DNA of 64,000 nucleotides, taken from IMG/VR virus record IMGVR_UViG_3300045988_070924, positions 40,150 to 104,149 of that record; one strand, written 5' to 3'. The notes beneath the pieces were generated by a model that worked only from the letters and a program-made list of their open reading frames with translations, was not told the DNA's origin and made no database searches. This DNA comes from a virus. Below are positions 62,812 through 62,942 of the stretch, in pieces (within the stretch, counting starts at the first letter, position 1; each line of letters opens with the position of its first letter). The translations under genes and the position numbers were made by a program.

Positions 62812-62942
62812 TGGGGAAGGTTTGATTTGAACAAACAATCTTTAGCTTATGAAACTAATGCATTAACCCGAAGTAACTCTCAATAACACTATCTCTTCAG
62901 AAGTAAAAGCTCAAGAGTTTTTTTTTATTATGCTACTTCCCC
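62812..62942 (-). tRNA. tRNA with anticodon CAU (Met or Ile2-type) carrying a 66-nt D-loop (~55-nt insertion)
   Basis: On the minus strand:
- Acceptor GGGGAAG/CTTCCCC (7 of 7 pairs).
- D-stem GCAT/ATGC.
- Anticodon stem TTAGT/GCTAA (4 Watson-Crick pairs plus 1 G-U).
- Anticodon loop TTCATAA (anticodon from 62849-62851).
- Variable loop AGATT.
- T-arm GTTTG-TTCAAAT-CAAAC.
- Discriminator A.

The gene is 131 nt long because the D-loop (62864-62929) is 66 nt. Confidence 0.75.

What the first reader, a model, noticed from the sequence alone, without database searches (positions are those of the whole stretch)
62812..62942. tRNA(CAU) gene with all four stems intact but a ~55-nt insertion in the D-loop
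On the minus strand every cloverleaf element is canonical:
- a 7-bp acceptor stem and a 4-bp D-stem
- a 5-bp anticodon stem with loop TTCATAA
- a 5-nt variable loop
- T-arm GTTTG-TTCAAAT-CAAAC

The exception is the D-loop, which is 66 nt (62864-62929) rather than about 8-11 nt.

The extra sequence begins with an A9 run. It can form an imperfect hairpin (AACTCTTGA / TTGAGAGTT). It also contains a 7-nt direct repeat, TTACTTC, once inside the insert and once at its 3-prime edge next to the GGG of the normal D-loop.

Known bacterial and phage tRNA introns are group I introns in the anticodon loop. A short D-loop insertion resembles neither those nor an obvious self-splicing element. It may be a novel small intron, a regulated or inactive tRNA, or a tiny inserted element.
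Basis: seen in the sequence. Interest (0 to 1): 0.7.

Follow-up and report, generated by a model that had tools for sequence, protein, structure and literature searches.

The report
tRNA carrying a Y-RNA-type stem
A gut phage encodes a complete methionine-type tRNA whose D-loop carries a conserved hairpin bearing the same sequence signature as the small "Y RNAs" found next to phage Ro60 genes, so it is most likely a new tRNA-shaped Y RNA rather than a tRNA with an intron.

Summary
Window 62812-62942 (-) is a perfect tRNA(CAU) cloverleaf with a 66-nt D-loop, and standard tools miss it.

It is not chance or decay:
- 13 independent crAss-like gut-phage contigs carry it, always with the insert.
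- All 37 base pairs hold in every sequence, with compensatory changes.

The insert is not an isolated oddity. Its 3' half carries a bipartite signature, AUAGUG-N8-AGUUACUUC, that recurs 4-5 times in this lineage's RNA-gene cluster. One copy sits inside the anticodon stem of a tRNA-Thr.

The same signature occurs in dozens of unrelated phages, where it marks tRNA-like RNAs directly upstream of Ro60/TROVE genes:
- Real motif: 28 of 113 hits have TROVE in the locus, all on the same strand.
- Scrambled control: 0 of 120.

Several of those RNAs are YrlA-type Y RNAs. A 95-96% identical relative encodes Ro60 about 3-4 kb beyond the window's end.

Best reading (confidence 0.55): a Y-RNA/tRNA chimera in which a Ro60-associated stem is grafted into the D-loop of an otherwise complete tRNA. 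This is a new topology of a known kind. A protein-dependent mini-intron remains possible (about 0.2). Only RNA data can decide between them.

The parts
62812..62942 (-). Whole gene: tRNA(CAU)-shaped RNA of 131 nt with an extra stem-loop in the D-loop
   Evidence: Sequence reading. MFE cloverleaf plus hairpin. 13 homologues. 100% of pairs kept.
62927..62942 (-). 5' body: acceptor 5' strand GGGGAAG, U8 A9, D-stem 5' strand GCAT, A14 A15 U16
   Evidence: Invariant in 13 sequences. Matches the D-arm of the tRNA-Lys found in relatives.
62920..62926 (-). A-rich 5' linker of the module. The run length varies between genomes from A5 to A9.
   Evidence: Alignment A3. Analogous A-rich AAAAUCU linkers precede the partner strand in TROVE-adjacent YrlA-like RNAs.
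62911..62919 (-). Outer helix, 5' strand AACUCUUGA
   Evidence: Pairs with 62875-62883. Two pairs switch G.U to A-U in L003, L019, L022 and L023.
62887..62905 (-). Inner hairpin UACUUCU-GAAG-AGAuAGUG. Its 3' strand contains box 1 of the signature.
   Evidence: Five of L007's six insert substitutions fall in unpaired columns of the hairpin (34, 35, 37, 47, 57); the sixth (column 22) is in the A-rich linker.
62870..62892 (-). 23-nt bipartite signature ATAGTG-TTATTGAG-AGTTACTTC: box 1, the helix strand, and the single-stranded ACUUC tail that abuts G18
   Evidence: The same signature with fixed spacing occurs 4-5 times per genome in the RNA cluster. In unrelated phages it lies next to TROVE genes.
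62812..62869 (-). 3' body: G18 G19 UUA, D-stem 3' strand, anticodon arm (CAT at 62849-62851), variable loop, T-arm, acceptor 3' strand, discriminator A
   Evidence: Rfam's partial tRNA hit covers 62812-62869.
62949..63303 (-). Phage tmRNA gene 6 nt upstream, probably co-transcribed
   Evidence: Rfam 97.3 bits. ARAGORN tag ANKVRKSVRSLVDYIKSAMQAPAVSFAVAA.
62673..62700 (-). Terminator-like hairpin GGACAC..GGTGTCC followed by a T-run, closing the RNA transcription unit. It is invariant in relatives.
   Evidence: Invariant block in alignment A1. Sequence read.

Best explanation
The gene encodes a chimera of a tRNA and a Y RNA.

The body is a complete, correctly folding tRNA(CAU) with an open acceptor end. 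It is probably released from the tmRNA-tRNA co-transcript by RNase P and given CCA by the host, because no CCA is encoded.

A ~45-nt stem-loop with flexible linkers projects from the solvent-exposed 16/17 position of the D-loop. This stem-loop is the closed-loop equivalent of the stem of phage YrlA-type Y RNAs. It carries the same AUAGUG-N8-AGUUACUUC signature, the same helix partner preceded by an A-rich linker, and the same orientation relative to the tRNA-like body.

The phage's own Ro60/TROVE protein is encoded a few kb upstream on the same strand in close relatives. I infer that it binds this stem, so the RNA stays unspliced and works as a Y RNA whose 'effector' domain is a full tRNA. Such a domain could tether Ro60 to tRNA-handling machinery, or protect or decoy that machinery during infection.

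Shown here:
- the structure and its conservation
- membership of a repeated element family
- the signature's strong association with TROVE genes and YrlA-like RNAs

Inferred:
- Ro60 binding
- retention of the insert
- RNase P and CCA processing
- the biological role
For: 1. **Conservation.** 13 of 13 independent contigs carry the insert, and all 37 pairs hold in every sequence.
2. **A repeated element.** The signature recurs at fixed spacing only in the RNA cluster and always on the sense strand. It occurs inside the tRNA-Thr anticodon stem, flanking a whole tRNA as a leader-trailer helix with a compensatory AGAAUU/AAUUCU variant in L016, and free-standing in a covarying hairpin.
3. **Link to Ro60.** In IMG/VR, 28 of 113 motif hits have a TROVE homologue in the locus, all on the same strand, and 19 lie 134-879 nt upstream of it. 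37 have a same-strand tRNA within 500 nt. The scrambled control gave 0 of 120 for both.
4. **Link to YrlA.** The motif-adjacent RNAs in L032 and L044 are sub-threshold Rfam YrlA hits with permuted tRNA order. That is the published YrlA architecture, found within 4 kb of Ro60 on the same strand (PMC4201824).
5. **Ro60 in this lineage.** TROVE genes lie about 3.3-4.5 kb upstream of this tRNA in L018, L020, L022, L023 and L024. Pfam TROVE scores 47.8 bits. L018 is 95-96% identical to the window.
6. **Recurrence of the D-loop topology.** Jumbo-phage contigs L043 and L054 have a complete tRNA-Asp with the motif-bearing insert in the D-loop.
7. **Precedent for an open acceptor end.** M. smegmatis YrlA is cut by RNase P and CCA-tailed in vivo while bound to Rsr (PMC4201824).
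8. **RNA-level constraint.** The N8 segment has a perfect 7-mer partner in 12 of 25 tRNA-context copies, with three different sequences.
Against: - No RNA or binding data exist.
- The published Rsr-binding motif GNCGAAN0-1G is not present. The signature is a different sequence, so its role as the Ro60 site rests on position and co-occurrence only.
- Rfam's YrlA model does not hit the window locus even at E<=10.
- TROVE is not in the window itself. The window ends about 2.7 kb short by comparison with L018. TROVE was also not seen in L011's 4.8 kb of upstream sequence.
- L016 and L017 have TROVE and the tRNA-Thr and tRNA-flanking copies, but lack this tRNA.
- An engineered aptamer inserted at C16/G18 of E. 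coli tRNA-Tyr was not stably expressed (PMC5397188), so a retained D-loop arm is not automatically tolerated.
- The phage encodes an RNA ligase (PF09414, 68.8 bits) that could support cut-and-rejoin splicing.
Confidence: 0.55

Rival explanations
1. A protein-dependent mini-intron or processing element. The conserved stem plus ACUUC tail is a recognition signal for an endoribonuclease. It is cut out of tRNA(CAU) and tRNA-Thr, and the halves are rejoined by the phage RNA ligase or host RtcB, giving ordinary ~76-nt tRNAs. The same signal releases stem-flanked tRNAs, and it could circularise the permuted genes, much as the bulge-helix-bulge system does in archaea and red algae.
For: - The tRNA-Thr insert sits between nt 28 and 29 of the anticodon stem. 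Only excision exactly after ACUUC restores a 5-bp stem (UG|RGA with UCUCA), and ARAGORN then calls tRNA-Thr. A retained stem there should interfere with decoding.
- The exons stay under tRNA-type selection.
- The motif abuts mature tRNA 5' ends in L076, L116 and L127.
- An RNA ligase (PF09414) and a metallophosphoesterase are encoded in the window.
- D-Spinach tRNA is unstable in E. coli (PMC5397188).
- Un-permuting six motif-adjacent RNAs gives ARAGORN-valid tRNAs with anticodon loops.
Against: - No bulge-helix-bulge motif can form. The 5' junction lies in an A-run that varies from 5 to 9 nt.
- No ribozyme or intron family hits the locus at E<=10.
- No splicing endonuclease was identified.
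- The permuted forms match YrlA, which is experimentally a stable Rsr-bound RNA and not a tRNA precursor (PMC4201824).
- The tight link to TROVE genes is not predicted by a splicing signal.
Confidence: 0.2
2. A working tRNA with a retained extra arm that has nothing to do with Ro60. For example, the arm could shield the phage tRNA from host tRNA-targeting nucleases or modification enzymes, or make it a decoy for them.
For: - Position 16/17 is the solvent-exposed variable part of the D-loop.
- All identity and tertiary nucleotides are intact.
- Sister tRNA scaffolds in the cluster change anticodon between genomes: GTG/CGG/TTG and TGT/GGT/TTT. That looks like an arms-race signature.
Against: - It does not explain why the same 23-nt signature marks TROVE-adjacent RNAs in unrelated phages.
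- It does not explain why the signature occurs in non-tRNA hairpins.
Confidence: 0.1
3. The signature is a DNA-level signal, either a promoter for a phage RNA polymerase or a homing-endonuclease/recombination site. It would have been inserted into tRNA genes, and the RNA hairpin would be incidental.
For: - Fixed linear spacing of two boxes, independent of local RNA structure.
- A purine usually follows the motif.
- Copies sit directly 5' of RNA genes.
- The locus is a hotspot for homing endonucleases.
Against: - AGAGUU and N8 are helix strands with compensatory changes in RNA.
- The G.U pairs work only on the sense strand.
- The motif precedes no protein-coding gene in the 64-kb window.
- Published crAss-like middle/late promoters are sigma70-like (bioRxiv 10.1101/2020.03.07.982082).
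Confidence: 0.05
4. A decaying tRNA pseudogene disrupted by a selfish mini-element.
For: Standard tRNA finders fail. Relatives L016 and L017 do without this gene.
Against: - All 37 pairs are kept across 12 distinct sequences.
- There are two double-compensatory T-stem changes.
- At 89% identity, all of L007's insert substitutions avoid paired positions.
- The sequence immediately 3' of the gene is unalignable between the same genomes.
Confidence: 0.03

Closest known systems
YrlA-type bacterial and phage Y RNAs (Rfam RF02553; Chen et al. 2014, PMC4201824)
   Same: - A tRNA-like domain with T-arm, D-arm and tertiary nucleotides, joined to a stem.
- Encoded a few kb from a Ro60/TROVE gene on the same strand.
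- Present in phages.
- The window RNA shares a 23-nt signature with TROVE-adjacent YrlA-like RNAs in other phages.
   Different: - Here the tRNA part is a complete cloverleaf in normal order, with a real anticodon loop (CAU) and an open 7-bp acceptor stem.
- The stem is closed by a loop and attached in the D-loop. In YrlA it replaces the anticodon stem and holds the RNA ends.
- The published GNCGAAN0-1G motif is absent.
- Rfam's model does not detect it.
[quoted passage not shown]
   Same: A Ro60-bound RNA with an open, CCA-tailed acceptor stem on a tRNA-like body.
   Different: - That RNA becomes two pieces held together by base pairing, whereas this one is a single chain.
- The attachment point is the anticodon stem there and the D-loop here.
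Non-canonical tRNA introns in the D-loop of Crenarchaeota and Cyanidioschyzon, and permuted tRNA genes (bulge-helix-bulge dependent)
   Same: - Short inserts at non-anticodon-loop positions, including the D-loop and anticodon stem.
- One junction motif is used in interrupted, permuted and flanked arrangements.
   Different: - No bulge-helix-bulge geometry.
- The host is bacterial and lacks the splicing endonuclease.
- The junction is defined by a conserved sequence signature rather than by a structural motif alone.
Group I introns in bacterial and phage tRNA genes
   Same: They interrupt tRNA genes in bacteria and phages. This same phage lineage has group I introns in its DNA polymerase and, in relatives, in its tmRNA genes.
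   Different: Group I introns are 200-300 nt, lie in the anticodon loop, and have a P1-P9 catalytic core and a terminal G. None of that applies to this ~55-nt insert.
tmRNA, and the long variable arm of class II tRNAs
   Same: They are natural examples of a tRNA body that tolerates a large extra domain.
   Different: The extra domain emerges from the anticodon-arm position in tmRNA and from the variable loop in class II tRNAs, not from the D-loop.

Membership tests
YrlA-type Y RNA (Ro60-associated tRNA mimic) | Encoded within a few kb of a Ro60/TROVE gene on the same strand | tested here: met
   TROVE lies about 3.3-4.5 kb upstream on the same strand in L018, L020, L022, L023 and L024 (Pfam 47.8 bits). 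L018 is 95-96% identical to the window. The window itself ends before that position.
YrlA-type Y RNA (Ro60-associated tRNA mimic) | A tRNA-like domain with T-arm, D-arm and conserved tertiary nucleotides | tested here: met
   A full cloverleaf with U8, A14, A15-U48, G18 G19, A21, G53-C61 and TTC.
YrlA-type Y RNA (Ro60-associated tRNA mimic) | The GNCGAAN0-1G motif on the 5' strand of the stem, the presumed Rsr contact | tested here: not met
   No such motif is in the 131 nt. The conserved box is AUAGUG, or AGUGAAAG in other phages, which resembles the published motif only loosely.
YrlA-type Y RNA (Ro60-associated tRNA mimic) | Permuted order (T-arm, closed acceptor-like hairpin, D-arm) with the stem at the anticodon-stem position | tested here: not met
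   Normal tRNA order, open acceptor stem, and the stem in the D-loop. The permuted form is seen in other motif-bearing phages.
YrlA-type Y RNA (Ro60-associated tRNA mimic) | Reaches the Rfam RF02553 gathering score | tested here: not met
   No YrlA hit at E<=10 in window 62500-63400. Motif-bearing relatives in other phages score 28-37 bits against a threshold of 69.
YrlA-type Y RNA (Ro60-associated tRNA mimic) | Bound by Ro60/Rsr in vivo | not testable with these tools
   Needs RIP or EMSA with the phage TROVE protein.
Canonical elongator tRNA-Met or tRNA-Ile2(CAU) | A cloverleaf with a 7-11-nt D-loop, detected by tRNA models | tested here: not met
   The D-loop is 66 nt. ARAGORN makes no call and Rfam tRNA gives 24.7 bits against 29. 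The feature is met only after in-silico deletion.
Group I intron in a tRNA gene | A 200-300-nt insert in the anticodon loop with a P1-P9 core | tested here: not met
   The insert is about 55 nt and lies in the D-loop. There is no Intron_gpI hit here, although the model finds 37040-37256 in the same window.
Bulge-helix-bulge (archaeal/eukaryal) tRNA intron | A 3-4-3 bulge-helix-bulge motif at the exon-intron junctions | tested here: not met
   The 5' junction lies in an A-run of variable length (A5-A9), and no staggered 3-nt bulges can be drawn.
Bulge-helix-bulge (archaeal/eukaryal) tRNA intron | A splicing endonuclease (EndA/Sen) is available | not tested
   Only 20 window ORFs were scanned against profile libraries. 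None was an EndA-like protein, but the genome is incomplete.
Small self-cleaving ribozymes (hammerhead, hairpin, twister, pistol, hatchet, HDV-like) | A match to the curated covariance model | tested here: not met
   No such family at E<=10 in window 62500-63400.

The most novel reading that the evidence does not exclude
The AUAGUG-N8-AGUUACUUC stem could be a splicing and circularisation signal of a phage-borne, protein-dependent tRNA maturation system. On this reading the D-loop-interrupted, anticodon-stem-interrupted, stem-flanked and permuted genes all mature into ordinary tRNAs. That would be a bacterial-virus counterpart of the archaeal and algal bulge-helix-bulge pathway, possibly with Ro60 and the phage RNA ligase as its protein parts.
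Probability: 0.12. Interest if true: 0.92.

Novelty: new variant of a known kind. Interest (0 to 1): 0.66.

Why it matters
- **New Y RNA topologies.** If this reading is right, phage Y RNAs come in more forms than the one described. A Ro60-associated stem can be attached to a tRNA body at the anticodon stem, the acceptor end or the D-loop. Some versions are complete tRNAs with a real anticodon and a chargeable end.
- **A testable question.** This makes concrete what the tRNA-like half of a Y RNA is for: recruiting tRNA enzymes, entering the ribosome, or decoying anticodon nucleases.
- **A practical marker.** The 23-nt signature finds tRNA-like RNAs that ARAGORN and Rfam's thresholds miss in many phage tRNA clusters, including abundant human-gut crAss-like phages.
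- **The alternative would matter more.** If the element is excised, it would be the first non-group-I tRNA intron system in bacterial viruses.

Tried and rejected
- **Mobile-element copies.** BLAST of the insert against the window and loci found only short matches inside coding regions (a 17-mer at 47871-47887 and a 13-mer at 59552-59564). I treated these as chance or coding sequence.
- **Insert-less alleles.** Insert-agnostic patterns in IMG/VR and in metagenome contigs returned only insert-bearing copies.
- **GenBank phages.** No similar DNA.
- **Bulge-helix-bulge, group I and small ribozymes.** All rejected; see the membership tests.
- **A split acceptor stem in the His/Pro/Gln-like tRNA.** I considered that a 5' exon might lie upstream of its motif copy. 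I rejected this because the required upstream trinucleotide is not conserved.
- **Host-type promoter.** The motif does not resemble Bacteroidetes or sigma70 elements, and published crAss-like middle promoters are sigma70-like.
- **Permuted tRNA genes.** I first read the motif-adjacent RNAs of L025, L032, L048, L117, L121 and L123 as permuted tRNA genes. I re-interpreted them as the YrlA topology after the Rfam hits and the Y RNA paper.
- **A flawed test.** My first test of N8 pairing was badly designed, with a high chance background and the wrong register, and it was uninformative. A strict 7-mer test replaced it.
- **Literature.** Searches for D-loop introns or insertions, or permuted tRNAs, in phages found nothing relevant.
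Full report
**1.

- a 7-bp acceptor stem
- a 4-bp D-stem
- a 5-bp anticodon stem with loop TTCATAA (anticodon CAT)
- a 5-nt variable loop
- a T-arm GTTTG-TTCAAAT-CAAAC
- discriminator A
- a 66-nt D-loop

ARAGORN does not call the gene under any setting. 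Rfam's tRNA model gives only a 24.7-bit partial match to the 3' part. ARAGORN does call tRNA-Met(cat) for 57 of 70 in-silico deletions that leave a normal-sized D-loop.

The whole 131-nt RNA folds by minimum free energy into a cloverleaf plus one extra hairpin, with z = -3.8. A strict custom scan allowing any D-region length found only genuine tRNAs and this gene in about 250 kb. All nucleotides needed for tRNA tertiary folding are in place.

A tRNA-Lys found in relatives of this phage has the same D-arm with a 9-nt loop (GCAT-AAT(T/C)GGTTA-ATGC). Comparison places the ~55-nt insert at position 16/17.

**2. Context.**

The window is a crAss-like phage genome:
- about 35% G+C, with one long run of minus-strand genes and giant ORFs
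- a family-A DNA polymerase split by a group I intron, plus NrdD
- distant relatives that carry the crAss_PVA family

A tmRNA gene ends 6 nt upstream of the tRNA. A conserved terminator-like hairpin lies about 110 nt downstream.

**3. The gene is under selection, insert included.**

Flanking-protein and DNA-pattern searches recovered 12 further independent copies from human-gut assemblies: L001, L002, L003, L007, L011 and L018-L024. All carry the insert, even though the metagenome pattern was insert-agnostic.

On the 13-sequence alignment, all 37 proposed pairs are standard pairs in all 12 distinct sequences:
- The T-stem of L007 shows two double-compensatory changes (G-C to A-U and U-A to G-C).
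- The anticodon stem switches U.G to U-A.
- In the insert's outer helix the two G.U pairs each switch to A-U, and L023 has both changes.
- In the inner helix one U-A becomes U.G.

L007's other six substitutions in the insert all fall in unpaired positions. The A-run varies from 5 to 9. By contrast, the sequence just 3' of the gene cannot be aligned between the same genomes. This excludes fortuitous stems and makes a pseudogene very unlikely.

**4. The insert belongs to a family of elements.**

Rfam reported a 125-nt full-length tRNA match in L018 and L020. It is a tRNA-Thr(TGT) with a 52-nt insert between nt 28 and 29 of the anticodon stem. Removing TGTAAAACTGTG...CAGTTACTTC restores the stem, and ARAGORN then calls tRNA-Thr.

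Both inserts begin with an A-rich stretch followed by AACU(C/G)U, and both end with A(G/C)AGUU-ACUUC immediately before the exon.

Searching for AGTTACTTC showed 4-5 copies per genome, only in the RNA-gene cluster and only on the sense strand. Each is preceded at a fixed 8-nt spacing by (A/T/G)T(A/G)GTG. Besides the two intra-tRNA copies, there are copies in three other settings:
- directly before a tRNA whose anticodon differs between genomes (GTG, CGG, TTG)
- after tRNA-Leu
- free-standing in a long hairpin whose lower helix covaries (GGCAC/GUGCC versus GACAC/GUGUC)

In every copy AGAGUU is one strand of a helix with AACUCU, and ACUUC follows as a single-stranded tail. The partner lies upstream in the two intra-tRNA copies and downstream in the others. 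In L016 the tRNA-flanking copy reads AGAAUU and its partner AAUUCU, which is a compensatory pair.

**5. The signature is widespread in phages and tied to Ro60.**

The pattern ATAGTG-N8-AGTTACTTC gave 113 hits in IMG/VR. Many are chance matches, but a large subset lies in the tRNA clusters of unrelated phages (20-500-kb contigs, many environments), with a purine-rich N8.

| Measure | Real motif | Scrambled control |
|---|---|---|
| Hits | 113 | 120 |
| TROVE homologue in the locus | 28, all on the same strand | 0 |
| Hits 134-879 nt upstream of the TROVE start | 19 | 0 |
| Same-strand tRNA within 500 nt | 37 | 0 |

Pfam confirms TROVE in L020, L044 and L032. L032's protein also has a Ro60-type vWA domain.

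**6. What the motif-adjacent RNAs are.**

In six unrelated contigs, swapping the 42-44 nt after the motif with the next ~28 nt gives ARAGORN-valid tRNAs. I first read these as permuted tRNA genes. Rfam then showed that the same stretches are sub-threshold YrlA matches: L032 1925-2030 at 35 bits and L044 4357-4464 at 28 bits.

Chen et al. 2014 (PMC4201824) describe exactly this:
- YrlA Y RNAs lie within 4 kb of Ro60 on the same strand, including in phages.
- They consist of a stem bound by Ro60/Rsr, mainly through its 5' strand, plus a tRNA-like domain in the order T-arm, acceptor-like hairpin, D-arm.
- M. smegmatis YrlA is cut by RNase P and CCA-tailed in vivo while bound to Rsr.
- Their M. 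smegmatis primer sequence contains CACTTCTAATGG, matching the junction ACTTC|ACTTCTAATGA in L032.

In these RNAs the motif is the 5' strand of the stem. Its N8 segment pairs with a partner just past the tRNA-like body: a perfect 7-mer at +66 to +89 in 12 of 25 copies, with three different sequences. That partner is preceded by an A-rich linker, AAAAUCU.

In crAss-like L038 and L076 the same stem encloses a normal-order tRNA as a leader-trailer helix, with covariation in its outer helix (UGUGCAG/CUGCACA versus UGUGUGA/UCACACA).

**7. Placing the window's RNA.**

The D-loop hairpin has the same parts in the same order relative to the tRNA body as those stems: A-rich linker, helix strand, distal region with AUAGUG, helix strand, then the ACUUC tail running into the 3' part of the tRNA. 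The differences are that the stem is closed by a loop, the acceptor stem is open, and the attachment point is the D-loop.

| Attachment point | Copies |
|---|---|
| Anticodon stem | 31 |
| tRNA 5' end (leader-trailer helix) | 12 |
| D-loop | 15 (13 in this lineage; 2 in jumbo-phage contigs L043 and L054) |

L043 and L054 encode a complete tRNA-Asp(GTC) with a ~64-nt motif-bearing insert after nt 14.

The lineage itself encodes a TROVE protein about 3.3-4.5 kb upstream of the tRNA on the same strand, in L018, L020, L022, L023 and L024. L018 is 95-96% identical to window 60500-63881. This puts TROVE about 2.7-4.2 kb, and the interrupted tRNA-Thr about 350-650 nt, beyond the window's end.

**8. 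Most likely mechanism (confidence 0.55).**

The RNA is a Y-RNA/tRNA chimera. It has a complete tRNA(CAU) body that is presumably processed by RNase P and CCA-tailed. It keeps a Ro60-associated stem projecting from the exposed 16/17 position and is bound there by the phage Ro60.

Shown:
- the structure and the selection acting on it
- membership of the element family
- the signature's association with TROVE and with YrlA-like RNAs

Inferred:
- binding, retention and processing
- the role, which could be tethering Ro60 to tRNA-handling proteins, protection of the RNA, or acting as a decoy

Caveats:
- The published GNCGAAN0-1G motif is absent.
- Rfam's YrlA model does not hit the locus.
- TROVE is not inside the window.
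- L016 and L017 have TROVE but lack this tRNA.
- A Spinach aptamer inserted at the same D-loop position of E. coli tRNA-Tyr was not stably expressed (PMC5397188).

**9. Main rival (about 0.2).**

The stem could be a cleavage and ligation signal, that is, a protein-dependent mini-intron.

For it:
- The anticodon-stem location in tRNA-Thr, where a retained stem should block decoding.
- The exact junction after ACUUC.
- Copies that abut mature tRNA 5' ends.
- The phage's RNA ligase and phosphoesterase.

Against it:
- The absence of any bulge-helix-bulge or ribozyme signature.
- The variable-length 5' junction.
- The YrlA identity of the permuted forms.
- The Ro60 link.

A DNA-level promoter, a Ro60-independent extra arm and a pseudogene are each given 0.1 or less. 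The reasons are listed under rival explanations.

**10. Novelty and verdict.**

Y RNAs that mimic tRNA are known, including in phages, so the kind is known. Several things appear to be new relative to the library I could search:
- a complete, normal-order tRNA with a true anticodon and an open acceptor end that carries the stem in its D-loop
- a sister tRNA that carries the stem inside its anticodon stem
- the conserved 23-nt signature shared across very diverse phages

I classify this as a new variant of a known kind, with interest 0.66. The most novel reading still open is a phage tRNA splicing and circularisation system, with probability about 0.12.

Noticed in passing
L018:7338-7462 (+); L020:2386-2510 (-); also L002, L003, L011, L016, L022, L023, L024: A second interrupted tRNA in the same lineage. 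It is tRNA-Thr(TGT) with a 52-nt motif-bearing insert between nt 28 and 29 of the anticodon stem. The anticodon is GGT in L023 and TTT in L016. By alignment with L018 it lies about 350-650 nt beyond the window's end.
   Followed up: yes
L002:1386-1458; L016:4021-4094; L018:7128-7200: One tRNA scaffold carries a different anticodon in different genomes (GTG, CGG, TTG). The top two acceptor pairs do not pair or covary, because its first three nucleotides, TTC, belong to the conserved ACUUC motif.
   Followed up: partly
window 37040-37256 (-), with ORFs 36238-36906, 37214-37828 and 37889-39484: A group I intron (Rfam 71.3 bits) with a LAGLIDADG endonuclease ORF splits the family-A DNA polymerase gene.
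   Followed up: partly
L011:3623-4153; L018:8513-9046; L024:698-1292; L001:1883-3077; L007:1-140: In several relatives the phage tmRNA gene is itself interrupted by a group I intron (up to 89 bits), with an endonuclease ORF beside it. The window's tmRNA is uninterrupted. L002's tmRNA has an extra ~60 nt.
   Followed up: partly
window 62949-63303 (-): The phage tmRNA encodes an unusually long 30-residue tag, ANKVRKSVRSLVDYIKSAMQAPAVSFAVAA. In L016 the tag is AAVQAPVMAYAIAA.
   Followed up: no
window 58056-59213 (-): An adenylosuccinate-synthetase-like gene whose best match is the PHROG family annotated as the PurZ type ('2-aminooxy adenylosuccinate synthetase'). This hints at 2-aminoadenine (Z) DNA in this crAss-like phage.
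   Followed up: no
window 34840-35553 (-) and 33007-33690 (-): An RNA ligase (PF09414, 68.8 bits) and a calcineurin-like phosphoesterase. These are a possible RNA repair or splicing toolkit. An HNH/NUMOD endonuclease lies between them at 34021-34620.
   Followed up: partly
L001:3250-3940; L003:3245-3903: A GIY-YIG-like endonuclease ORF is inserted just 3' of the tRNA. It ends in a 16-nt duplicate of the tRNA's 3' end (ATCAAACCTTCCCCAC). L002, L021 and L024 keep the first part of the cassette without the ORF.
   Followed up: partly
window 62701-62811 (-): The ~110-nt spacer between the tRNA and the terminator is replaced by unrelated sequence in different relatives, with at least four alternative cassettes. 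L016 has a different ~150-nt structured-looking sequence and no tRNA. This could be another small RNA.
   Followed up: no
L002:954-1039; L016:3815-3900; L020:3567-3651; L022; L024: A tRNA with anticodon TCT (Arg) has a class-II-like long variable arm (85-86 nt). Other relatives (L003, L011, L023) have a normal 72-73-nt tRNA-Arg(TCT).
   Followed up: partly
L020 reverse strand 5528-5735; L002:1460-1625: Between tRNA genes lies a ~110-nt RNA hairpin: a 10-bp helix, a 7x8 internal loop, a 9-bp helix, and a 28-nt loop that starts with ACUUC. The lower helix shows compensatory changes. It may be this lineage's stand-alone Y RNA.
   Followed up: partly
L012:716-822: A sub-threshold YrlA hit (46.8 bits) next to a tRNA, in a more distant relative that lacks the CAT tRNA at the syntenic position.
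   Followed up: no
L051:4651-5069: A sub-threshold GOLLD RNA match (75 bits against 150) about 2.4 kb from a motif copy in a phage tRNA cluster.
   Followed up: no
window 32049-32627 (-): This ORF matches only the C-terminal part of ThyX (Thy1 profile positions 139-191). The gene may be split or truncated.
   Followed up: no
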